44,897 nucleotides of DNA. Source: Methanotrichaceae archaeon (lineage in GTDB: Archaea > Halobacteriota > Methanosarcinia > Methanotrichales > Methanotrichaceae). The position numbers and the translations under genes were made by a program. Below are positions 10,543 to 29,282 of this stretch, one piece after another. Under the pieces are notes generated by a model that worked only from the letters and a program-made list of their open reading frames with translations, was not told the origin of the DNA and made no database searches. The stretch is taken from the NCBI GenBank assembly GCA_963803145.1, contig CAWDLW010000051.1:1-44897 (forward strand), written 5' to 3'. How positions within the stretch are numbered: the stretch's first letter is position 1; every line of letters begins with the position of its first letter.

Positions 10543-11196
10543 AGTAGTTTTAGCATCCAAAATGTAGGTGATAAGATCCCCAGCAAACTCCCCGGGGACC
10601 ATTATCCCTTCCAGTAGTTTAGATTGCATTAATCGGTTTTATATGTTGAACATATAAAACAAGGCCACCATTTGCCCGAATACATTCCCCTGGATCTTCG
10701 TAATTTTTCCTTTAAGCTCAACGGGCTCTTCCTTTGACTGGACAGCCTGTACAAGCGGGACTGCCAGAACTACCAGAATCAAAGCTTCAGCCAACCTATT
10801 CCAACCCATTCTTATCACCTTGTTCAACTATTGGCCACACCATAACGGGATGTGCAGTCAGCCCACGGAAAGCCCTGGAGCGAGTCAAGTTCTCGCAATT
10901 AGCAGGACTATCTCTTGTGAATCTTTAGTATTTCACAGCAATCACGTAATTTGTTGATATATGATAATTTGGATTTAGGCAATTACTGTTGGAAAATGAG
11001 GAAAGAATTCGCTGCAATTTGTCGATGTATATTCCTTATAGCTTGTTTATTGAGTCTTAATAATCCATTTTTAGCACTTGGATTCGCGGGACAAATGGCG
11101 GTGGAAATCAGCCGCACTGGTGAAAATCGGGATGTATAGATTCTTCAAATTTGTTTTCCGGATGCTCAACGGCTCTTTGATTTTTATGTAAAAGAT

Positions 11197-11502
11197 CTAT
11201 TTACATTTCATAAGCATCTTTTCAATTTCTATCCTCATCTGCTCTAACAAATTCTTTTCCATGTTAGCCTTCTCACAGTGCGATGCAACCTTGGGGTTAC
11301 AGTTAACAAGAACATCCATTGCCCTATTTGCCATCGACTGGCAGCCCAAGTCCTCCATATCAGACAAGAATAAAGACATGCGATTAGCAAATTCCCTGCA
11401 TTTCTCGTAGTTGGCTATAGCTTCATCGTGCAGCTTACAAAGCTGCTCAATCTCTCTGTTAATCTCCACCCAGTTTTGTCTATCCATAACTTTAGGGTCC
11501 AT
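11197..11502 (-). CDS. Hypothetical helical protein with several Cys
   Basis: 101-aa ORF with protein-like composition, divergent from tRNA-Cys/cysS. Confidence 0.65.
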   Translation of the reverse strand: MDPKVMDRQNWVEINREIEQLCKLHDEAIANYEKCREFANRMSLFLSDMEDLGCQSMANRAMDVLVNCNPKVASHCEKANMEKNLLEQMRIEIEKMLMKCK

Positions 11503-11669
11503 GGCCTACAAAGTCCGTGATTTTATGAAGCGGCGTATATACGCAGAATGCGTATAAGGTTTCTCTTAGTTATGGTAATTATTCATTATTGATTAACTAC
11601 AAAATGCCGACAACTATTGCCGCTATCCTCAGGTATTTGTGTACCTTCACGTATGGTTAATAGATGGAT

Positions 11670-11740
11670 GCCGGGGTGACTGACCGGTTAAGTGCGCGGC
11701 TGCAGACCGCGAGAATTGGGTTCGACTCCCAATCCCGGCC
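11670..11740 (+). tRNA. tRNA-Cys(GCA), atypical (C73 discriminator)
   Basis: Hand-folded cloverleaf: acceptor GCCGGGG/TCCCGGC, anticodon stem CGCGG/CCGCG with CT-GCA-GA loop, T stem TTGGG/CCCAA with TTCGACT loop; no encoded CCA. Confidence 0.9.
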
Positions 11741-11742
11741 TT

Positions 11743-13188
11743 ATGAGGATTCATAATACTCTGAGTGGCGATAAAGAGCCACTACAGACAATTCACAAAG
11801 GTCGTATCAATCTATTTGTTTGCGGTCCGACCGTTTATGACGATTCCCATATCGGCCATGCCAGGACCTACATCGCCTTTGATGTAGTTGCTCGCTATTT
11901 CAAGTACAAAGGCTTCAGCGTTTTCTACCTGCAAAACATAACCGATGTGGATGATAAGATCATCAATAGAGCCGCTGAGCTGCACGTTTCACCCTTAACG
12001 CTGGCACGCAAATTCGAGCGAAGATACCTGGAGGATATACGTGCCCTTGGAGTAACTAACGTCAACCTTTATGCCAGGGCAACTGAGCATATCCCTGAGA
12101 TCATCAGCCAGATAGAAAGGCTGGTGGAAAAAGGATTTGCATATGAGACGAAGACTGGCGTTTACTTTGACGAGTCCAAATTCGACGATTTCGGGAAGTT
12201 GTCGCATCAAACCACAGAGGACCTGGAGAAACACAGGATAGAGCCGGACCTGAGCAAGAGGAACCCTGGAGACTTCTCCCTCTGGAAGAAACGGCAAGAT
12301 GGAGAAGAAGTTATCTGGGACTCGCCCTGGAGCGAAGGCCGCCCCGGGTGGCACATAGAGGACACGGCCATTACCGAGACCTACTTTGGCCCTCAGTACG
12401 ATATCCACGGTGGAGCAATGGACCTGATATTCCCCCATCATGAGGCTGAGATTGCACAAATGGAGGCGGCCTCTGGAAAAAAACCGTTGGTTAGATACTG
12501 GATGCATACCGGCTTTCTAAACGTAAAGGGCGAAAAGATGTCCAAATCGCTGGGAAACTTCATCACAATCAGAGAGATGCTTCAACGGTACGATGCCGAA
12601 TCATTCAGGTTTTTCGTTCTTTCTGCACATTACCGAAGTTCTATTGATTTCTCCGAAGCAGCTCTCGAGCAGTCAAGCAAAAGCTTGGCGAGGATTCGTC
12701 AGCTTGCTAGGATCATAGACGAGCAAATCGGGATGAATAAAGAGATTAATGAAGAGAGTATCCCACAATCATCGGAAACTGAAGAGATCGATGCTAGTGT
12801 GGTTGAGGCAAAAACAAAATTTTTGGAGCATATGGATAACGATTTCAATACACCTTATGCTCTTCGTGTTATCTTCGAGCTTGTAAGAGATGTGAATCGG
12901 CGCATAAGCGAGAAGACGATTTCTAGAAAGGCGCTTTTCGATGTTAAGGCTTTTCTGGAAGAGGCTGGAGAAATCCTCGGCTTACGCTTCTCTGGGGCAG
13001 AGAATGAGGCTATGGGAGCTGCAGAGGATTTGACTGTAAACCTGATTGAGCTCTTGATCGATATACGGCAGAAGCTCCGTGAGAAAAAGGACTGGCAGCT
13101 TGCGGATGAGATACGAGCTAGGATGAATGAAGTGAACATCGTCCTAGAGGATACTAAGACCGGAGGTGGAGGATACACGATTAAATGA
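11743..13188 (+). CDS. cysS: Cysteinyl-tRNA synthetase
   Basis: CGPTVYD, HIGH, GRPGWHIE, FPHHEAE, KMSKS and anticodon-binding C-terminus; true start ATG 11743 (the ORF-track extension runs through the tRNA). Confidence 0.97.
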   Translation: MRIHNTLSGDKEPLQTIHKGRINLFVCGPTVYDDSHIGHARTYIAFDVVARYFKYKGFSVFYLQNITDVDDKIINRAAELHVSPLTLARKFERRYLEDIRALGVTNVNLYARATEHIPEIISQIERLVEKGFAYETKTGVYFDESKFDDFGKLSHQTTEDLEKHRIEPDLSKRNPGDFSLWKKRQDGEEVIWDSPWSEGRPGWHIEDTAITETYFGPQYDIHGGAMDLIFPHHEAEIAQMEAASGKKPLVRYWMHTGFLNVKGEKMSKSLGNFITIREMLQRYDAESFRFFVLSAHYRSSIDFSEAALEQSSKSLARIRQLARIIDEQIGMNKEINEESIPQSSETEEIDASVVEAKTKFLEHMDNDFNTPYALRVIFELVRDVNRRISEKTISRKALFDVKAFLEEAGEILGLRFSGAENEAMGAAEDLTVNLIELLIDIRQKLREKKDWQLADEIRARMNEVNIVLEDTKTGGGGYTIK

Positions 13189-13371
13189 TCATCTAGAGAT
13201 CTGCTAGTTATCTTACTCTATTTTTCAAGTTTTGATGCTATCCGCCTAAATTCGATGATATCCTGGTCATTAGTAAAGAAAATGTATGTAGCTGCCCTTA
13301 AAAATGGGCAGCTATCCAGTGCTGTACCATCAAAGAAAGATGGCGTAGCCTGCTATAGGACCCCAATCGTT

Positions 13372-16673: not shown

Positions 16674-17604
16674 TCATGGAAACACTGCCGATAAGCTGCC
16701 GATGTATTGCCGATATTTTGCCGATAAACTATAGGATCTAGCCCAGCGTGAAGGATTTGAGACCTCCAGCCATCCGTCTTTAACCCAAGCTCCAAGAAGG
16801 TTCCTGGCCATGCGCTCTGATAGGCCCAGCTCTTCAGCCACTTCTGGAGCAGTGATGGTCTCTTTTTTAGCAAAGAGGCCCAAGACTACCCTTGCTCTGT
16901 GATCCAGGCGGCGCAAATCCTCAGGCTCAGCGGGCGTTCCATTCTCTGCACACTTCTGGGCCCTCTGCCTGACGGCTTCGAAGACCTCTGCCAAAGTGGA
17001 TATGAAGTATTACATCTGCTAGCGATAAGTGTTTTTCAAAGATTAAGTAAAGATCCTGTCCGTCGATTCCAATTATAGACGTTGGCTGAAGTCTTTGAAA
17101 GGCATATACACTATCGGGCGAGAAGTTGCCACATGTAATGAAAATACCACGGCCAATTCTTGAATGTCCTGAAGCTCGACCATGCAAGGCTAGCAGATCC
17201 TTCTCAATAATTGGGTTCGTTTGCCACCTTGCTTCAATCAGATAAAACTGATGCTCGAATTCAATACTTCCGTCTATTTGTTCTCCGGTATTTCTGAAAG
17301 ATGGTCTCGGGTTGAACCCATAGATTTCAAATAGATCATAGAGCAATTTTTGGCGTATATGCTCTCTGCCCTTTCTTTCAAGCTCCTGCTCTTCATGGCG
17401 AAATCTGAAATCTGCATACTTGAGAAATATCAGCCCTAGGACCGGCAAAGAATACTCAGAAGCTTTCAGCTTGGAGTTGACCCTAAGTTCGTCAGCCGCA
17501 CCCCAAAGGCGCTTTTCGATATCGTTGTGGTTTCCGGGCACTATTGTTTCATCTCTTGGAGTATCTTGCCTCGAATTTTGGCCTGGTTCTTCAAACCAGA
17601 ACAT
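16674..17604 (-). pseudogene. Mosaic remnant: HsdM N-terminus, Mrr-like restriction endonuclease domain and an HTH fragment resembling a Fic-protein C-terminus
   Basis: [20 protein letters not shown] (type I M subunit start), GEQIDG..YLIEARW (PD-(D/E)xK-like); overlapping frame carries ITAPEVAEELGLSERMAR HTH. Confidence 0.7.
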
Positions 17605-21081: not shown

Positions 21082-21834
21082 ATGTTTGTTTGCGGTCCAA
21101 CGGTCTACGACGACTCTCACATAGGCCATGCAAGAACCTATATCGCCTTCGATACGGTAGCACGCTATCTCAAGTATAAGGGATTCAGCGTTTTTTATCT
21201 TCAGAATATAACAGATGTGGATGATAAGATCGTCAATAGAGCCGCTGAGCTTAGCGTCTCTCCTACAGACCTTGCACAGAAATATGAGCGAAGATACCTT
21301 AAGGACATGCATGCGCTCGGCGTAGAGAACGTTAACCTTTATGCATGCGCCACAGATCACATACCTGAAATCATAGATCAGATAAAGGCGCTAGTAGAAA
21401 AGGGATTTGCATACGAGACAGAGACGGGCGTTTATTTCGACGAGTCTAAGCTGGAGGATTTCGGAAAGCTATCGCACCAGACAGCCGAAGACCTGGAGCG
21501 GCATAGAATAGAGCCCGACCCCACAAAGAGAAATCCTGTCGATATTCTCTCTCTGGAAAAACGGGAGGACAGCGTTGATGTTACCTGGGATTCGCCCTGG
21601 GGCAGAGGGCGTCCAGGCTGGCATATAGAAGATACAGCAATCACAGAGACCTATTTCGGCCATCAATACGATATCCACGGCGGCGCTATGGATCTGATTT
21701 TTCCACATCATGAAGCTGAGATCGCTCAGATGGAATCAGCTTCAGGGAAAAAGCCGATGGTGCGATACTGGATGCATACAGGATTTCTGAGGGATATGGG
21801 AATCATCCTGGAAGATTCGAAAATCAAAAGCTGA
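21082..21834 (+). pseudogene. cysS: Truncated second cysteinyl-tRNA synthetase copy
   Basis: Very similar to the 11743 copy up to WMHTGFL, then jumps to the terminal ILED motif (KMSKS and most of the anticodon domain deleted); N-terminus eroded; local compensated frameshift at GDFSLWK. Confidence 0.85.
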
Positions 21835-22809: not shown

Positions 22810-24282
22810 TCATCTGCAAGTCCCCACGAGCCTGCTTACGCCATCGCTGGTAACCATCCCTATGATCCTCTGGCCATCATCCACGACAGGAAGGGCAGAT
22901 ATATTGTACTTAGTCATTCTTTTGGCGGCGCCTTCGATGGGATCATCCGACTTTGATGTGATCACATCGCGTGTCATTATCTCCTCCAGGAGAGTGTACT
23001 TCAGAGCAACGGCCTTTGAGACATCCCAGGCGGTAACTATGCCCTCCAGCCGTCCATCCTCTGAGATAACAGGCAGGTGAGTAACTCCCTCATTCATCAT
23101 GATCATGGCGGCATCCTCGACACTTGAACCTTGCCTTATGGTTACAACCTCTTTGATCATAACGTCTCCAACGGATGTGTGTGAGAGAAAGTTGCCTATG
23201 GTGTAGTTCATCTGACCCGATTCTAGAAGAAACGCATCATGGCCGTAGTTCGATTTTATCTCGCAGTATCTGGCATCAACATCATTTGCAGTCAGCGCTT
23301 CAACGATCTCTTTGGACTGGTATGAGGGGTATAGCCAGTCCGAGCTTATGGATAGCACTAGGAACTTGGCCGTCACATTCCTAAAGGCTTCGGCCAGGGT
23401 GCCATCCTTTGCAAGATCGAAGTAATCTACCGCCTTGGTAATATAGAGGTATGAGTTGGCATCGAACCTCTTTACGAAGGTATCTCCATGGTAACGTAAG
23501 TAGCTCTCCACCTGGAAGTCTAGACCAAAGTTGAAGCCGTACTCGCTTCTATCCTGAAGTCGTCGACCGAACTTCTGGTGCATTGATTCATCGCTAAGAT
23601 ATGTGATATGTCCGATCATCCTCGCCAGAGAGAGGCCTCTCGCAGGTGCAGTCTTTCCGTAGTAATCCCCTTCGATCCAGTCGGGATCGGAGGTGATCGC
23701 ACGTCTACCCACCTCATTGAAGGCTATCTGCTGAGGCGATGAATAGGCACTCGTAGCTATCGGAACTACTAACCTGACGGCGTCCGGGTAGGAGACACAC
23801 CACTGAAGAACTTGCATGCCTCCAAAGGAGCCGCCTATAATGGCAAAGAGCCTTTTAATTCCCAGAAAATCGATCAGCCTTTTCTGAACATCTACAATAT
23901 CCTTGACTGTGATTACCGGGAAATCCAGACCATAAGGCTTCCCTGTCTTTGGACTAACGGAGGATGGGCCCGTCGTGCCTTTGCATCCTCCGAGAACATT
24001 TGAGCAGATTACAAAATATTTATCGGTATCCAATGCCTTTCCAGGACCGATAACAATGTCCCACCAGCCTGGTTTCTCCTCGCCTTTATGCCAACCGGCT
24101 GCATGGGCGTCTCCTGATAGGGCATGGCATATCAGCACGGCATTGCTCTTCTCATTATTCAGCTTGCCATATGTCTCATAGGCGATTTCGACGTCATTTA
24201 GCCGATCGCCATGCTCAAGGACGATCTCCTCCGGAATGTTGAAGCATCGAGTCTCGACTAAGCCGACAGATTCCCGCTTCAT
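22810..24282 (-). CDS. metX: Homoserine O-acetyltransferase with C-terminal CBS pair
   Basis: CHALSG, GGSFGG, RFDANSY and GHDAFL motifs, followed by two CBS domains. Confidence 0.95.
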
Positions 24283-25598
24283 TTCACAGCCCTGGCCAGC
24301 GCCTGATCTAGATCTGCGACAATATCCTCTACATCCTCAATGCCTATCGAGAGCCTTATGAAATCTGGTGTGACGCCTGTAGCCGCTTGCTCAACGGGTG
24401 TAAGCTGCTGATGTGTTGTGGATGCTGGGTGGATCACAAGGCTCTTCGAATCGCCGATGTTTGCCAGATGCGAAAAGAGCTCCACCGATTCGATGAACCT
24501 CTTGCCTGATGCAAGGCCGCCCTTTATGCCGAATCCAATGAGAGCACCATAGCCGCCTTTCATGTACTTCTTTGCAAGTGTATGGCTGGGATGATCTTCC
24601 AAGCCGGGGTAGTTTACCCAAGCCACAGCTGGATGCGCCTTAAGGTATTCTGCAACCTTAAGGGCATTCTCCGAGTGCTTCTTCATGCGTATGCCTAAAG
24701 TCTCCAAGCCCTGCAGGAAGAGAAAGGCATTGAAGGGACTGAGGCATGGCCCCAGGTCACGAAGCAGCTGCACTCGTACCTTGAATATAAATGCAACATT
24801 TCCCATGCCGGGAAAGTTGCCGAAGGTATCCCAGTACTTCAGGCCATGATAGCTCGGATCGGGCTCCGTAAACTCGGGGAATTTGCCGCTCGACCAATCG
24901 AACCTGCCGGAATCTATTATGACTCCGCCAATCGAATTTCCGTGACCGTCTATGAACTTTGTAGCAGATTCTGCAATTATATCCGCACCATGATCTAACG
25001 GCTTCACCAAGCCGACCGCCGATGTATTATCGACCACTAGTGGAACTCCGGCATCATGTGCGATCTCAGCCAGCGCCTCAAAATCAGGAACATCCAGCTT
25101 GGGGTTGCCGAGAGTCTCTGCATAGATGGCTCTTGTTTTATCAGTGATGGCCTTCCTGAACCCTTCAGGATTTGTCGAGTCCACAAAGTTCACCCTTCGC
25201 CCGAGCTTCGGGAATGTGTAATGAAAGAGCTCGTAGGTTCCACCGTAGAGATTGTTGGCCGAGACAATATCATCTCCCAGCTGGCTGATACCCAGCAGCG
25301 CTAGCGAGATAGCCGATTGGCCAGAGGATACGGCCAAAGCACCTGTGCCGCCTTCTATGGCGGCGATACGCCTCTCGAAGGCATCATTGGTAGGATTCAT
25401 TATCCGCGAGTAGATATTGCCAAGCTCCTTCAGTGCAAAGAGATTGGCTGCATGATCTGTGCTCTTGAAGACATAAGATGTAGTTTGATAGATTGGAACT
25501 GCTCTTGAACCCGTTGCCGGATCGGGACTTTCCTGTCCTGCATGGACTGCAAGGGTATTCAGCCCATATTTCTTTTTGTTCAAATTCTCTTGGCTCAT
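24279..25598 (-). CDS. metY: O-acetylhomoserine aminocarboxypropyltransferase (sulfhydrylase)
   Basis: [24 protein letters not shown] lysine and HPASTTHQQ motifs. Confidence 0.95.
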
Positions 25599-25605
25599 GT
25601 TGCCT

Positions 25606-26979
25606 CTAATTTACATTTAATCCATATTTTTCGGCGATCTCGATGAACGATTCGGAAGTGTATTTTATCTGGTCCCACGTGAGGCCGTAGGTATTCAGCT
25701 TCCAGGTGCGAGTGGCTCCTGCAAACTCACCAGCGATTCCTCGATCCTTCAGCTCATCACTGAAGAAGAAACCTCGTCTCTTATGTGTTTTAGCAACTAC
25801 ATCGAAGCTGCCGGTTGTATCCACCTTTGTGAGGGTATGCTTCCTTGGCCACTCGCTCAGGACCTTGGAGCCCTGAATTCTCAGGAACTGCTCAAGGAAG
25901 TAGTTTGATTTGCTGACCTCCTCATCCCAGTGCTTTGTCCTTTCCAGCACCGTTGGGAAGGATGCAATCATGGAGATCAATGTGCCTCCCATGAGCGTGC
26001 AGCCCATGTTCTCCACTTCCTTGATGCCGAACTTGCGCTTTGTCAGATCTCCAACCATCTGGGTTGTTCTGAAGATCTTCGAGGCCCATTCGTCTGTTGT
26101 TGCAAGCACTCCCGAAGGCGCAACTGATGCCATGCTTTTATGTGCCGATCCGACTATGAAATCGGCGCCTATTTTTTTACCATCCACTGGCCTTACGCCG
26201 ACCGCATAGGCTCCATTGCAGAGAAACGGCACATCATATTGCTTTGCGACCTGGGCAATGCCGCAGACGTCATGCTCATTTGCAAACTGATAATCGTAGT
26301 AATCGATCATTATGAGCTTGGGAAGGCTGCCTGTCTCCTTATGCACATTCTCGATCTTCTCTGCAACTGCATCAGCTGTTATAATATTGCGATTATTCAA
26401 AGGGACCTCCATAACTCTGCCGCCCGCAACCTCGACCGCCAGGAACTCAGTATAGTGAGCCAGCGATGAGACTATCACGCTGTCGCCCTTCTCAACTAGC
26501 GATTGAGTGACTGCCTGAAAGCCGCGCCGGGCACCTGGAACAACCCGTGCCTGATCCATGTTGACAAATTTGGCGAGCTCCTGGTGAAACTCCTCAATTG
26601 GCGGCCTGGTTATCTTGTCCAGACGGAAGGGCTTTCTGCAGTAATCGCAGGTGGAGTAGCCATCACCATAGGAGATTATGGCCTTGCGCGCCTCAGGCGT
26701 GAGCCTGCCAGCAGCCTGGATAGGATGGATATTTATGAACTCCTCCTCACGAGTTCTTGGATCAAGCTTGCCGCCGATTTTATTGCAGGATGGCTTTCCG
26801 TCGCCATTCTCAATGCCATCAATGGCTATTTTTATCCTCGAAATTGTGCTCGAGAGCCGCTCCTGCTCAGCTTCGCTAAGCCCGGTTGGCAGCGATTGCC
26901 TGAAGATCTCTCTTAGATCCTCTAGCCCGAAGAGCGCCTCATAGGTTTTCTGAATTTGCAGTCTCTTTTTCAACTCCAA
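25606..26979 (-). CDS. pscS: Sep-tRNA:Cys-tRNA synthase with N-terminal helical extension
   Basis: [27 protein letters not shown] lysine and LGCT-like MGCT; TTG start at 26979 with GGAGG RBS. Confidence 0.93.
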
Positions 26980-27042
26980 TTTACGGCCTCCAAAGCCCCA
27001 ATAGGCATCGAATATTTTATTAGCAGATGCAACAGGGGCTGA

Positions 27043-27086
27043 GTTCACGGTTGTGAACATCAGATAACAATTGTTATGTATATAAA
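27043..27086 (-). promoter_or_regulatory. pscS-metY-metX promoter: TATA box plus tandem palindromes
   Basis: TTTATATA on the minus strand, then ATAACAATTGTTAT (27064-27077) and GTTCACGGTTGTGAAC (27043-27058). Confidence 0.75.
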
Positions 27087-27687
27087 TATTTCGACTTTGG
27101 GTTCTGTAAAGTTGGCGGTTGTTTAGCGATTCCAAAGAATCTGTCAAAACTCGGTTGTTAGAAGGAGATTCAAACACCCTCAAATTTTTATTGATCCATA
27201 TTCAATTCATATTTAACCCTCGAAAGTTTTGGTATTCTAAGACTTGAAATAAGTTTAATAAAGAACTTCTACTGTTGGTGCATTCTTTATCGTTCATTTC
27301 GAATGTTAAATCCAACCTTTACAAATTGTGCATATTTACCATTTTATAGTAGCAAGGTATTTATATCCACGATGAATATATGCGATTTAATTGACATATA
27401 ACATACATTATGGCGACAAAGGCAGAGAAAAATAAACTAAATTAGAAATGAAGGAGTCCTCAGCTCCGACATTCCCAAGCAAAGCAAGCACAACCCCTAG
27501 CATTACCGGAGGTTATCAATGATGATAAGTAACTTCAAGCAATATAAACCTTTTGCATTGAAAGAGACGCTAGTAAAGCATACAAATAAAGTACTCCATC
27601 GCTTTGAGTTGAACTATTCTCAAACCCGTTTTTACAATGATCTGGTATCGCCTTTGCGAACAAGTTTCTCCTATAAGGAGGGTCAAA

Positions 27688-28142: not shown

Positions 28143-29282
28143 ATGGGAAAGGAGAATTTGATTGCGATGAAAGACGTTAGAGAGGAAAAAGGTAAACAAA
28201 TTGTAGATCAAGATCACATATTCCAAGTCACTACTACCTCTTTCGTTGTAAAATCGCAATCAAGCCCTAGATTCTATAATGTCGATAAGACTTCTATAGG
28301 CTGGAAATGCAATTGCCCCGATCATAAGTTCAGAGGTTCAAAGTGCAAACATATTTGGGCAGCGCAATTATGCTCAGGAATTAAAGAGCAGGCAAAGCGA
28401 AACATTGTATTAGAGCCAGTGAAAATTTCAGATTGCCCCTATTGCCATTCGCAGAACATCAAAAAGTATGGTGCTAGACATAACAAAGATGGGGATCTTC
28501 AGAGGTTTGCCTGTAAGGATTGTGGCAGAACATTCAGCATTAACATAGGCTTTGAGCATATGAAGCACAATCCAAAAGCAATAACAGCAGCCATGCAACT
28601 TTATTTCAGTGGCGAGTCCCTACGAAGCACACAGAGATCATTGAAACTTATAGGTGTCGAAGTGTCTCATCAGACCGTTGCCAACTGGATTGCAAAGTAT
28701 ACCAGAATCATGAAGGCATACGTGGACAATATCAAGCCTGATGTAAGCTCAACTTGGCGAGCTGATGAGGTATTCCTCAAAATAAAGGGGGATCTCAAAT
28801 ATCTGTTTGCCTTGATGGACGACGAAACCCGCTACTGGATAGCTCAAGAGGTCGCAGATACCAAAGATAAACACGATGCAAGAGCCCTTTTCAGAGAGAG
28901 CAGAGAGATTGCAGGCAAAAGACCTGAGACACTAATAACCGATGGACTCCAATCATACCATGATGCCTTCAGAAAGGAATTCGCTACAAGCCGTGCCCCT
29001 CAGTCTCAACATGTTAATGCAATTCGTCTTCAAGGATCGAAAAACAATAACAAAATGGAAAGAATAAATGGCGAAATTCGAGATCGAGAGAAGACCATGA
29101 GAGGCTTAAAGACTAAAACCACCCCAATCTTACAAGGGATGCAGATCTATCATAATTACATAAGACCTCATGAGGCCCTTGATGGGAAAACACCATCTGA
29201 AGCATGTGGTATTGAGATCAGGGGAGATAATAAATGGATTACATTGATTCAGAACGCGAGTCAGAAAGTGAAAGTTAAATAG
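28143..29282 (+). CDS. IS6/IS240-like DDE transposase with N-terminal SWIM finger and Zn ribbon
   Basis: CNCPD..CKH (SWIM), CPYC..CKDC, HTH, WRADE, ITDG, NNKMER and HNYIRPH motifs. Confidence 0.92.
   Translation: MGKENLIAMKDVREEKGKQIVDQDHIFQVTTTSFVVKSQSSPRFYNVDKTSIGWKCNCPDHKFRGSKCKHIWAAQLCSGIKEQAKRNIVLEPVKISDCPYCHSQNIKKYGARHNKDGDLQRFACKDCGRTFSINIGFEHMKHNPKAITAAMQLYFSGESLRSTQRSLKLIGVEVSHQTVANWIAKYTRIMKAYVDNIKPDVSSTWRADEVFLKIKGDLKYLFALMDDETRYWIAQEVADTKDKHDARALFRESREIAGKRPETLITDGLQSYHDAFRKEFATSRAPQSQHVNAIRLQGSKNNNKMERINGEIRDREKTMRGLKTKTTPILQGMQIYHNYIRPHEALDGKTPSEACGIEIRGDNKWITLIQNASQKVKVK

What the first reader, a model, noticed from the sequence alone, without database searches (positions are those of the whole stretch)
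11670..11745. tRNA-Cys with C73 discriminator sitting 2 nt upstream of the cysS start codon
Seen: a complete GCA cloverleaf ends ...TCCCGGC-C followed by TT-ATG of cysS, with no room for a separate RBS. Position 73 reads C and the 15:48 pair reads C:A. Known: U73 is a major identity element for both CysRS and SepRS; some synthetases (E. coli ThrRS) autoregulate through tRNA mimics in their leaders. Inference: either a tRNA-like cis-regulatory leader whose binding or 3' cleavage controls a near-leaderless cysS mRNA, or a private tRNA/CysRS pair orthogonal to the SepRS-SepCysS route.
Basis: partly seen in the sequence, partly recalled or inferred. Interest (0 to 1): 0.72.

Follow-up and report, generated by a model that had tools for sequence, protein, structure and literature searches.

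The report
Private cysteine tRNA fused to its synthetase gene
A second cysteine tRNA with an unusual end base sits two bases before the start codon of the cysteine-charging enzyme in one family of methanogen-type archaea, so trimming the tRNA probably creates the enzyme's messenger RNA; unusual tRNA-enzyme pairs of this kind were already noted in methanogens, but this fusion was not found in the papers searched.

Summary
Window 11670-11740 (+) is a tRNA-Cys(GCA) with C at discriminator position 73. TT follows, then the ATG of a full-length cysS.

It is not an error. All 31 distinct junction sequences read in the family have C73. Twenty-nine keep a 1-2 nt spacer before ATG, and the cloverleaf shows compensatory changes.

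The genome also has a canonical U73 tRNA-Cys, SepRS, SepCysS, cysE and cysK. In the family, SepRS and the U73 tRNA are near-universal. The C73-tRNA/cysS module is accessory (40 of 105 genomes) and goes with cysK.

One CysRS residue tracks C73: Glu144 in the CP domain in 32 of 32 enzymes linked to an intact C73 tRNA, against 0 of 30 others. In one genome the tRNA has decayed to an acceptor/T-arm minihelix and the enzyme has Val144, yet C73, the 2-nt spacer and ATG remain.

Best reading: a co-transcribed private tRNA/CysRS pair, kept apart from the U73-reading SepRS/SepCysS route. RNase Z cleavage after C73 would release a near-leaderless cysS mRNA. None of this is tested by RNA or enzyme data.

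Non-U73 tRNA-Cys in methanogens is already in print. My seven literature searches did not find the fused arrangement, the Glu144 link or the minihelix remnant.

The scan holds no earlier finding of this on other DNA.

The parts
11632..11645 (+). Conserved upstream box GGTATTTGTGTACC, 25-38 nt before the tRNA 5' end. Likely the archaeal TATA/BRE promoter of the tRNA-cysS transcript (inferred).
   Evidence: Variants of (A/G)GTAT(T/A)(T/A)GTG lie at this distance in many of the 31 distinct family sequences, but not all; L016, L020 and L022 lack it. Sequence checked. Promoter function is inferred from position only. No archaeal promoter scan was available.
11670..11740 (+). tRNA-Cys(GCA), 71 nt, no encoded CCA. 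It has G37, a G13:A22 mismatch, C15:A48, and discriminator C73 at 11740.
   Evidence: ARAGORN. Rfam RF00005 50 bits. Covariation on 18 distinct homologues. C73 in 31 of 31 distinct family sequences.
11741..11742 (+). 2-nt spacer (TT) between discriminator and start codon. Predicted 5' end of the cysS mRNA after RNase Z cleavage.
   Evidence: Spacer is 2 nt (tt/tc/gt/tg) in 27 and 1 nt in 2 of 31 distinct sequences. There is no run of five or more T before 12610. The RNase Z gene is present in the genome at 364.8 bits against a cut-off of 293. Cleavage itself is inferred.
11743..13188 (+). cysS, cysteinyl-tRNA synthetase, 481 aa, with HIGH and KMSKS motifs and an anticodon-binding domain.
   Evidence: Pfam and NCBIfam matches. 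PDB relatives 8qhp at 452 bits and 1li5/1u0b at 370 bits. Motifs checked.
12172..12174 (+). Codon GAG for Glu144 in the CP-domain motif YFDESKF (aligns with E. coli Val146). Candidate reader of C73.
   Evidence: Glu in 31 of 31 C73-linked CysRS and 0 of 30 others (V 17, I 7, L 4, T 2). L020 also has Glu. The one family enzyme whose tRNA has decayed (L021) has Val. E. coli numbering. Contact with base 73 is not verified.
13221..13225 (+). First T5 run after the cysS stop codon. Likely transcript end (inferred).
11197..11502 (-). Divergent 101-aa Cys-containing ORF that travels with the module. Function unknown.
   Evidence: DNA homology among family loci runs from about 11193 to 13201. tblastn gives 71-91% identity over 90 or more residues in 7 loci. 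No Pfam, NCBIfam or Atlas hit.

Best explanation
This is an accessory 'direct cysteine route' module. One transcript carries a dedicated tRNA-Cys with discriminator C73, followed immediately by its own cysteinyl-tRNA synthetase gene.

Transcription probably starts at a promoter about 30 nt upstream of the tRNA. It runs through into cysS, because there is neither a terminator nor room for a promoter or ribosome-binding site between them.

RNase P and RNase Z would cut out the tRNA. The RNase Z cut after C73 would leave a cysS mRNA that begins UU-AUG and would be translated as a leaderless message. That would make tRNA maturation and synthesis of its synthetase one linked event.

The CysRS, with Glu144 in its acceptor-binding CP domain, would charge the C73 tRNA with free cysteine made by CysE/CysK. 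The core SepRS/SepCysS route would keep to the canonical U73 tRNA-Cys.

Shown here: the anatomy, its conservation, the co-occurrences and the Glu144/C73 covariation. Inferred: co-transcription, RNase Z generation of the mRNA 5' end, leaderless initiation and orthogonality.
For: 1. Real tRNA. Covariation is 6 of 21 pairs with compensatory changes. The GCA anticodon and G37 are invariant in 18 distinct homologues.

2. Fixed junction. C73 is present in 31 of 31 distinct sequences, and a 1-2 nt spacer plus ATG in 29 of 31. In 37 of 105 family genomes a BLAST match runs from tRNA base 1 across the junction.

3. Unique in the genome. No other ARAGORN tRNA in this genome has a long ORF starting within 10 nt downstream.

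4. No terminator at the junction. There is no T5 run between the tRNA and 12610. The canonical tRNA-Cys is followed by TTTTT within about 15 nt.

5. The enzyme for the cut exists. RNase Z is present.

6. Core versus accessory. SepRS is over its cut-off in 97 of 105 family genomes. The canonical tRNA-Cys is found in 83 of 105, with U73 in 30 of 30 copies read. The module is in 40 of 105 genomes and 8 of 16 genera, and 38 of those 40 also have the U73 tRNA.

7. Link to free-cysteine synthesis. Module and cysK: both in 31 genomes, module only in 9, cysK only in 4, neither in 61 (my hand cross-tabulation). cysK lies 2.5-13 kb from the module in G097, G041, G104, G049 and G002. The window's genome has cysK and cysE side by side.

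8. Glu144 tracks C73. It is Glu in 31 of 31 C73-linked enzymes against 0 of 30 others.

9. Natural experiment in G011 (L021). Its cysS is intact (462 aa). Of the tRNA only a 6-bp acceptor stem and the T-arm remain (MFE -26.1 kcal/mol; ARAGORN finds no tRNA). C73, TC and ATG are still in place. The enzyme has Val144. It lies inside the family clade at 99/96 support, and the genome has three canonical U73 tRNA-Cys genes.

10. Same layout elsewhere. A non-U73 cysS-linked tRNA, canonical U73 tRNA(s) and SepRS occur together in Methanobacteriaceae G121 and G123 (C73), Methanoregula G125 (G73) and G039 (A73). Three Methanobrevibacter-like genomes in which no SepRS was found keep U73 on their only tRNA-Cys.

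11. Published support. SepCysS gates on U73 through R345/G346/F347/G364, and U73G weakens binding (PMC5688128, passages). The CysRS CP1 domain reads the acceptor end (PMC5389517, passages).
Against: - No RNA data could be obtained, so transcript ends, processing and charging are all unobserved.
- A rough count shows that this genome mostly uses leadered, Shine-Dalgarno-type starts. An SD 5-mer occurs in 21% of 1739 crude ORF starts against 5% background, and there is no TATA signal at -27. Leaderless initiation would therefore be the exception here.
- In this window's copy the AUG sits in a weak 6-bp AU hairpin.
- The Bathyarchaeota genome G128 has SepRS and this CysRS clade, yet its cysS-linked tRNA keeps U73. 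Co-existence with SepRS therefore does not force a changed discriminator.
- In G122 and G129 no second U73 tRNA-Cys was found (both records carry 'MAG' in their titles, and absence in a metagenome-assembled genome is weak evidence). There the odd tRNA might serve both routes.
- SepRS is reported as relatively insensitive to position 73 (PMC5688128, passage).
- I could not verify that residue 144 lies near base 73, because no coordinates were available.
- The G011 remnant is a single case.
- The careful tree leaves the C73 Methanobacteriaceae, the U73 Methanobrevibacter group and the family clade as an unresolved fork (94/86). One origin of C73 is therefore not shown, although the quick tree gave one clade at 86.
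Confidence: 0.6

Rival explanations
1. Independent transcripts. A weak internal promoter in the 3' half of the tRNA gene starts a primary, truly leaderless cysS transcript at or next to the ATG. The candidate is the A/T-rich variable loop, AGAATT/ATAATC/ATATTC, about 27 nt before the ATG. On this view the tRNA is processed separately and the abutment is only gene compaction.
For: The variable-loop region is the only A/T-rich patch in the tRNA. It lies at the distance expected for an archaeal TATA box (the distance rule is recalled, not from a call). The G011 remnant keeps exactly this 3' portion.
Against: The match to a TATA box is poor and the flanks are G+C-rich. The same variable loop (ATAC-TT/TC) occurs in Methanobacteriaceae, where cysS lies about 30-130 nt further downstream, so it looks like a tRNA feature and not a promoter adaptation. 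The G011 remnant also keeps the 5' acceptor strand that pairs with the 3' strand, which a promoter would not need.
Confidence: 0.15
2. Regulatory leader. The tRNA moiety of the precursor acts mainly as a cis element. CysRS binds it and thereby controls RNase Z access or ribosome loading, giving autoregulation as in E. coli thrS.
For: The synthetase's cognate tRNA touches its own start codon in 29 of 31 distinct sequences. Binding of CysRS to the precursor would sterically cover the AUG. This is inference only.
Against: The element is a full tRNA with an invariant anticodon, G37 and T- and D-loop signatures, plus compensatory changes. A homologous tRNA lies about 30-130 nt from cysS in Methanobacteriaceae. 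In G011 the anticodon arm is lost, although it is a major CysRS binding site (PMC9976931, passages), while the junction is kept. The junction's value therefore does not depend on CysRS recognition. Regulation could still be an added layer.
Confidence: 0.1
3. Not orthogonal. The C73 tRNA is simply a second isoacceptor. CysRS charges both tRNAs, SepRS/SepCysS may also use C73, and the odd discriminator is a tolerated, hitch-hiking change.
For: Bathyarchaeota G128 keeps U73 on the linked tRNA despite having SepRS. No second U73 tRNA-Cys was found in G122 and G129. SepRS is reported as relatively insensitive to position 73 (PMC5688128, passage). G011 shows that the enzyme lineage can live on U73 tRNAs after one CP-domain change.
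Against: Three different non-U discriminators (C, G, A) all occur in genomes that have SepRS. The three genomes in which no SepRS was found keep U73. Glu144 is strictly coupled to C73. SepCysS structurally excludes non-U73, and both SepCysS copies of this genome keep a motif of that kind.
Confidence: 0.25
4. Artefact: the extra C is a sequencing or assembly error, or the tRNA is a pseudogene.
For: None found. The assembly is rated 6.77% contaminated.
Against: C73 is present in 31 of 31 distinct sequences from independent genomes of 8 genera, including two same-genus genomes. Compensatory changes keep the cloverleaf.
Confidence: 0.01

Closest known systems
Non-U73 tRNA-Cys in methanogens that have both SepRS and CysRS. 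Perona et al. 2018, known to me only through the discussion of Mukai et al. 2022 (PMC8762117, passages).
   Same: A tRNA-Cys with G73, C73 or A73, accompanied by changes in the acceptor-binding region of CysRS, was proposed to make the two routes orthogonal. C73 is reported there for some Methanobacterium. I found those enzymes to be the nearest named relatives (58-63% identity).
   Different: The quoted passage does not list this family (Methanothrix/Methanosaeta-like, by inference from one record title). It does not mention gene linkage, the 2-nt abutment, Glu144 or the minihelix remnant. I could not read the 2018 chapter or any supplements, so some of this may already be recorded there.
selC* tRNA-Cys with the dedicated CysRS* of Desulfobacterales (Mukai et al. 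2016, PMC5389517, passages).
   Same: A second cysS gene is genetically linked to a non-standard tRNA-Cys. Specificity was re-tuned by a few CP1-domain residues that read the acceptor end, and this was tested in E. coli.
   Different: That system is bacterial. It has an 8/4 tRNA with U73, an A1:U72 pair and a UCA anticodon, the enzyme lacks the anticodon-binding domain, and selB* lies between the genes. Here the tRNA is a standard 7/5 cloverleaf with GCA, the enzyme is full-length, and the change is at position 73.
Mitochondrial tRNA punctuation with leaderless mRNAs (recalled; only reference-list entries seen).
   Same: The tRNA directly abuts an ORF. Excision of the tRNA defines the mRNA 5' end at or next to the AUG.
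   Different: That is an organellar, genome-wide strategy. Here it is one locus in an archaeon that otherwise looks mostly leadered, and the tRNA is the substrate of the very enzyme encoded downstream.
[quoted passage not shown]
   Same: An acceptor/T-arm-type structure is used by the tRNA-processing enzymes to set the exact ends of a neighbouring RNA. The G011 remnant looks like such an element.
   Different: In all but one genome the element here is a complete tRNA that is presumably charged.
Two PylRS/tRNA-Pyl pairs in one archaeon, separated by G73 against A73 (Zhang et al. 2022, seen only as passages of the review PMC9499178).
   Same: The discriminator base alone, with a small change in the synthetase, makes two pairs for the same codon set mutually orthogonal inside one cell.
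   Different: A different synthetase class and amino acid, and that case has been demonstrated experimentally.
E. coli thrS operator, a tRNA-mimic leader
   Same: A synthetase gene is preceded by an RNA that resembles its tRNA next to the start codon.
   Different: The thrS operator is an anticodon-arm mimic that overlaps a Shine-Dalgarno site and is not a tRNA. Here there is a genuine tRNA and no Shine-Dalgarno site.

Membership tests
tRNA (Rfam RF00005), cysteine isoacceptor | Cloverleaf with conserved D- and T-loop signatures, scoring over the Rfam gathering threshold | tested here: met
   50 bits against 29, model positions 1-71 of 71. ARAGORN agrees. Six of 21 pairs are compensatory.
tRNA (Rfam RF00005), cysteine isoacceptor | GCA anticodon, with G37 | tested here: met
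   Invariant in 18 distinct homologues.
tRNA (Rfam RF00005), cysteine isoacceptor | [quoted passage not shown] | tested here: not met
   C at 11740. C73 in 31 of 31 distinct family sequences.
tRNA (Rfam RF00005), cysteine isoacceptor | Is matured, receives CCA and is charged with cysteine | not testable with these tools
   No RNA run was listed.
Cysteinyl-tRNA synthetase (TIGR00435 / PF01406) | Score over the curated cut-off, with catalytic and anticodon-binding domains | tested here: met
   497.9 bits against 340. PF01406 at 397 bits plus DALR_2.
Cysteinyl-tRNA synthetase (TIGR00435 / PF01406) | HIGH and KMSKS motifs | tested here: met
   HIGH at residues 36-39 and KMSKS at 265-269.
Cysteinyl-tRNA synthetase (TIGR00435 / PF01406) | Zinc ligands equivalent to E. 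coli Cys28, Cys209, His234 and Glu238 (the ligand list is recalled, not from a call) | tested here: inconclusive
   Cys, His and Glu are present. The Cys209 position is Asp207 (HIEDT). This is shared by the whole archaeal clade whatever the discriminator, so it is not linked to C73.
Co-evolved non-U73 tRNA-Cys/CysRS pairs of SepRS-bearing methanogens (as described in PMC8762117) | Non-U73 tRNA-Cys in a genome that has both SepRS and CysRS | tested here: met
Co-evolved non-U73 tRNA-Cys/CysRS pairs of SepRS-bearing methanogens (as described in PMC8762117) | Accompanying change in the acceptor-binding region of CysRS | tested here: met
   Glu144 in the CP domain: 31 of 31 against 0 of 30. Val in the tRNA-less G011 enzyme.
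Co-evolved non-U73 tRNA-Cys/CysRS pairs of SepRS-bearing methanogens (as described in PMC8762117) | Functional orthogonality of the two routes | not testable with these tools
   This needs aminoacylation kinetics.
tRNA-punctuated / RNase Z-generated leaderless mRNA | The ORF start lies within a few nt of a tRNA 3' end on the same strand, with no terminator or ribosome-binding site between | tested here: met
tRNA-punctuated / RNase Z-generated leaderless mRNA | Processing enzyme present | tested here: met
   RNase Z (TIGR02651) at 364.8 bits against 293.
tRNA-punctuated / RNase Z-generated leaderless mRNA | The mRNA 5' end is monophosphorylated at the base after the discriminator, and that mRNA is translated | not testable with these tools
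   No RNA run was listed.
tRNA-mimic autoregulatory leader (thrS type) | A partial mimic (not a functional tRNA) overlaps the ribosome-binding site and is bound by the synthetase to repress translation | tested here: not met
   The element is a complete covarying tRNA and there is no ribosome-binding site. Binding was not testable.

The most novel reading that the evidence does not exclude
The locus is a self-contained, naturally orthogonal translation cassette in which one RNA processing event does two jobs. Excision of the tRNA-Cys(C73) by RNase Z licenses translation of its own synthetase by creating a leaderless mRNA. Free CysRS competes with RNase Z for the tRNA moiety of the precursor, which gives built-in homeostasis of the pair. 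A single Glu/Val switch at CP-domain residue 144 sets C73 against U73 specificity. The acceptor/T-arm half of the tRNA is under selection as an mRNA-maturation signal even after the tRNA function is lost, as in G011.
Probability: 0.15. Interest if true: 0.8.

Novelty: new variant of a known kind. Interest (0 to 1): 0.58.

Why it matters
If the reading holds, three things follow.

1. It would be a clear archaeal chromosomal case of tRNA punctuation. My seven literature searches found no earlier one, but this rests on listings and passages only. A synthetase mRNA would be born by cutting out the synthetase's own tRNA.

2. It gives the proposed insulation between the direct (CysRS) and indirect (SepRS/SepCysS) cysteine-coding routes a concrete, testable molecular handle. 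That handle is C73 paired with Glu144, with a natural revertant (Val144) in a genome that lost the tRNA.

3. A compact natural CysRS/tRNA-Cys pair with a non-U discriminator is a candidate orthogonal pair for genetic-code engineering.

If charging turns out not to be selective, what remains is a tidy but modest gene-organisation curiosity.

Tried and rejected
- Expression data: the look-up of sequencing runs (kind rna) on window 11300-12500 listed no RNA holder.

- A third tRNA-Cys: ARAGORN in intron mode called one at C17:213340-213430, with an intron at position 35/36. In no-intron mode the same locus is tRNA-Arg(GCG). I rejected it as an artefact.

- The window's second SepCysS (25606-27183, minus strand) as a C73-adapted partner: rejected. 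It keeps the KRRGFFF...G residues that align with the M. jannaschii U73 gate (against PMC5688128). I did not test its distribution against the module.

- The Asp that replaces the zinc-ligand Cys (HIEDT) as a C73-linked change: rejected. It is clade-wide.

- The CP1 motif that reads the 1:72 pair (GARV against HR(I/V)): it does not separate C73 from U73 enzymes.

- My fixed pattern for tRNA-Cys missed the canonical Methanobacteriaceae tRNA-Cys. For a while this suggested that C73 was their only tRNA-Cys. The covariance-model search corrected that for G121 and G123.

- The apparent internal deletion of the tRNA in L019 is an NN scaffold gap.

- The small AUG hairpin in this copy is absent from most of the relatives' junction sequences, by my reading.

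- The MAFFT alignment A2 of all discriminator types was not consistent with the structure in the anticodon stem. I did not use it for a model.

- Earlier scan notes held nothing on this feature.

- Rows left out. For the CysRS column test and trees I used 28 or 29 family enzymes, dropping duplicates, ORFs under 440 aa and ORFs running off a locus (L020 was added back as a partial). From the 80 named loci I used 32, picked by hand: all those with a linked tRNA-Cys except the partial L074, plus 22 others.

- The cysK cross-table was made by hand. Kin are not independent, so no test was run on it.

- Literature. Searches found no description of a tRNA-Cys abutting cysS or of RNase Z-made leaderless mRNAs in archaea. 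I saw listings and passages only, so this is not a claim that none exists. PMC2494925 and PMC1838712 are not held. I did not see Perona et al. 2018. The supplements of PMC8762117 and PMC5424206 may list tRNA-Cys variants that bear on novelty.
Full report
**What is there.** ARAGORN finds a single tRNA in the window, tRNA-Cys(GCA) at 11670-11740 (+). Rfam's tRNA model matches the same 71 bases over its full length at 50 bits, against a gathering score of 29. The acceptor stem runs from G1-C72 to G7:U66, and the next base, 11740, is C. TT follows, then ATG at 11743.

The ORF 11743-13188 is a complete cysteinyl-tRNA synthetase. TIGR00435 scores 497.9 bits against a cut-off of 340. Pfam gives the catalytic domain at 397 bits plus DALR_2. 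HIGH and KMSKS are present. Its second residue aligns with residue 3 of E. coli CysRS, so the start codon is correctly placed and no ribosome-binding site can fit.

**It is not an error and it is a real tRNA.** I read 31 distinct tRNA-plus-junction sequences from the same family. All end in C73. Twenty-seven have a 2-nt spacer (tt, tc, gt or tg) and two have a 1-nt spacer before ATG. Two are visibly decayed copies, L025 and L029.

Across the 105 species genomes of the family, 40 have a match (8 of 16 genera). In 37 the match runs from the first tRNA base across the junction into cysS.

On 18 distinct C73 tRNAs (15 from the family, 3 from Methanobacteriaceae):
- 95% of cells pair.
- Six of 21 pairs show changes on both sides.
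- The covariation score is 0.228, against 0.126 in shuffles (0 of 500 as high) and at most 0.071 with slid partners.
- The anticodon, G37 and a G13:A22 mismatch never vary.
- The 15:48 pair is C:A in 12, U:A in 1, G:U in 2 and G:C in the 3 Methanobacteriaceae (read).

**Genome context.** The assembly has 51 contigs, 4.13 Mb, and is rated 99% complete and 6.8% contaminated. It holds:
- exactly one other tRNA-Cys, a canonical one with U73 followed by a T-run (a third call in intron mode is tRNA-Arg);
- SepRS at 754 bits;
- a canonical SepCysS, plus a second longer one inside the window;
- RNase Z;
- adjacent cysK and cysE.

Among all ARAGORN tRNAs of the genome, only this one has a long ORF starting within 10 nt.

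One named record with the same junction is titled 'Methanosaeta sp. UBA80' (L074). From that I infer that the family is the Methanothrix/Methanosaeta family. This is an inference only.

**Core and accessory parts.**
- SepRS is over its cut-off in 97 of 105 family genomes.
- The canonical tRNA-Cys is found in 83 of 105, and all 30 copies fetched have U73.
- The C73-tRNA/cysS module is patchy, in 40 of 105. Of those 40, 38 also have the canonical tRNA. The two misses are 66% and 79% complete.
- Module and cysK go together: both in 31, module only in 9, cysK only in 4, neither in 61 (my cross-table). cysK lies a few kb away in several genomes.
- Homology between family loci covers 11193-13201. 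That span takes in a divergent 101-aa ORF, the promoter region, the tRNA and cysS.

The module therefore looks like an add-on 'direct' cysteine route laid over a core tRNA-dependent route.

**How the cysS message is probably made.** A box, (A/G)GTAT(T/A)(T/A)GTG, lies 25-38 nt upstream of the tRNA in many copies. It sits where an archaeal TATA/BRE element would be; that position rule is recalled, not from a call. There is no run of five T between the tRNA and position 12610, and one lies 33 nt after the stop codon.

With two bases between discriminator and AUG, the simplest route to a translatable mRNA is one transcript cut by RNase Z after C73, giving 5'-UUAUG. That RNase Z cuts after the discriminator and leaves a 5' phosphate is recalled knowledge.

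A crude count suggests the organism otherwise uses Shine-Dalgarno leaders: 21% of 1739 rough ORF starts against 5% background. This would then be an exceptional leaderless message.

The relatives' CysRS genes in Methanobacteriaceae, Methanobrevibacter, Bathyarchaeota and Methanoregula, and the less similar one in Methanolobus, also have a tRNA-Cys upstream, but about 20-130 nt away (11 of 80 named loci). Linkage is therefore old, and the 2-nt fusion is special to this family.

**A natural experiment.** In genome G011 (L021) cysS is intact (462 aa), but ARAGORN finds no tRNA upstream. What remains is the 5' acceptor strand, about 45 unrelated bases, then the T-arm and 3' acceptor strand, C, TC and ATG. 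It folds into a 6-bp acceptor stem plus T-arm (-26.1 kcal/mol). By recalled knowledge, that is the part of a tRNA that RNase P and RNase Z need.

This enzyme lies inside the family clade (99/96) on a long branch of 0.54. Keeping both ends while the middle was lost argues that the junction is selected as a processing signal. It is one case only.

**Specificity.**
- I compared 31 CysRS linked to a C73 tRNA with 30 others: 4 linked to U73, 2 to G73, 2 to A73 and 22 with no linked tRNA. One column separates them completely. It is Glu144 in the CP-domain motif YFDESKF, against Val, Ile, Leu or Thr in the others. It aligns with E. coli Val146.
- The partial L020 enzyme also has Glu.
- The G011 enzyme, which has lost its C73 tRNA and lives with three U73 tRNA-Cys genes, has Val.
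- The CP1 domain of CysRS is known to read the acceptor end, and a few residues there re-tuned a bacterial enzyme to a private tRNA-Cys (PMC5389517, passages).
- I could not check the distance from residue 144 to base 73.
- On the other route, SepCysS makes a pocket 'exclusively for U73', and U73G weakens binding (PMC5688128, passages).
- The second SepCysS in the window keeps the residues that align with that pocket, and the canonical copy has a similar GR(Y/F)F...G motif offset by one position in the ungapped alignment.

**Wider pattern.**

| Genome(s) | Lineage | SepRS | cysS-linked tRNA-Cys | Other tRNA-Cys found |
|---|---|---|---|---|
| G121, G123 | Methanobacteriaceae | yes | C73 | canonical U73 |
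| G125 | Methanoregula | yes | G73 | two U73 |
| G039 | family f3 (Methanolobus-like) | yes | A73 | four U73 |
| G124, G126, G127 | Methanobrevibacter-like | none found | U73 | none |
| G128 | Bathyarchaeota | yes | U73 | a second U73 |
| G122, G129 | Methanobacteriaceae; Methanolobus (records titled 'MAG') | yes | C73; A73 | none found |

G128 runs against a strict rule, because it has SepRS and still keeps U73 on the linked tRNA. G122 and G129 leave open that the odd tRNA serves both routes there.

The quick tree puts all C73-linked enzymes in one clade (SH-aLRT 86). The careful tree leaves the C73 Methanobacteriaceae, the U73 Methanobrevibacter group and the family clade as an open fork.

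**What is known already.** Mukai et al. 2022 (PMC8762117, passages) report, citing Perona et al. 2018, that some methanogens with both routes have G73, C73 (Methanobacterium) or A73 tRNA-Cys. They note changes in the acceptor-binding region of CysRS and suggest orthogonality. The private-pair idea is therefore in print. My searches and the passages I read did not show the abutment to the start codon, the processing logic, Glu144 or the remnant. I could not see the 2018 chapter or any supplements.

**Verdict.** This is a real, conserved and interesting variant of a known kind. Confidence by claim:

| Claim | Confidence |
|---|---|
| The tRNA gene and its C73 are genuine | about 0.97 |
| tRNA and cysS are co-transcribed | about 0.85 |
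| RNase Z makes a leaderless cysS mRNA | about 0.6 |
| The pair is functionally insulated from SepRS/SepCysS | about 0.6 |
| All of these together (the figure given for the best explanation) | 0.6, set at the level of its weakest steps |

None of the functional steps has been observed.

Noticed in passing
window 21082-21834 (+): A 250-aa CysRS paralogue, 82% identical to residues 24-263 of the full enzyme. It lacks the first 23 residues. An internal deletion removes KMSKS and the whole anticodon-binding domain but keeps about 12 C-terminal residues in frame. HIGH and Glu144 are retained. It is either a decaying duplicate or a catalytic-core-only protein.
   Followed up: partly
window 25606-27183 (-), with 24279-25598 (-) and 22810-24282 (-): A second SepCysS of 525 aa with a roughly 140-aa N-terminal extension (NF006810 at 619 bits). 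It lies next to a Cys/Met-metabolism PLP enzyme and an alpha/beta-hydrolase with two CBS domains. Together they form a sulfur amino-acid cluster 12 kb from cysS. Its U73-gate residues are kept.
   Followed up: partly
window 11197-11502 (-): A conserved 101-aa ORF with five conserved Cys, divergent from the tRNA-cysS promoter. It is 71-91% identical in 7 loci of several genera and has no family in Pfam, NCBIfam or the Atlas. It could be a regulator of the module.
   Followed up: partly
L021 (G011) 1449-1529: A tRNA remnant reduced to an acceptor stem plus T-arm directly before an intact cysS whose product has Val144. It looks like a natural 't-element'.
   Followed up: yes
CysRS residue 207 (window 12361-12363) and relatives: The position aligned with the E. 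coli zinc-ligand Cys209 (ligand identity recalled) is Asp (HIEDT). This holds in the whole archaeal CysRS clade examined: the C73-, U73- and G73-linked enzymes and 3 of the 22 with no linked tRNA.
   Followed up: partly
alignment A1, columns 15 and 46: The 15:48 tertiary pair of the C73 tRNAs covaries: G:C in Methanobacteriaceae, G:U in two deep family members, and C:A (once U:A) in the rest.
   Followed up: partly
G000:C42:20607-20697 and G000:C17:150968-151057: ARAGORN in intron mode calls a tRNA-SeC(tca) on C42. It also calls a tRNA with an undetermined 4-base anticodon on C17, which reads as Thr-cgt in intron mode. Neither was checked. Two 'tRNA-Pyl' calls with 2-kb introns are surely false.
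   Followed up: no
window 28143-29282 (+) and 16927-17604 (-): A DDE transposase (IS240-type domain), and an HsdM_N/Mrr_cat restriction-type gene. They are signs that this stretch of the contig is a variable region.
   Followed up: no
G002:C1:417056 and G002:C1:1244990; G018, G001, G080, G082: Several genomes carry two copies or extra fragments of the tRNA-cysS module. One G018 copy is a pseudogene with an ACG start and internal stops. The module duplicates and decays readily.
   Followed up: partly
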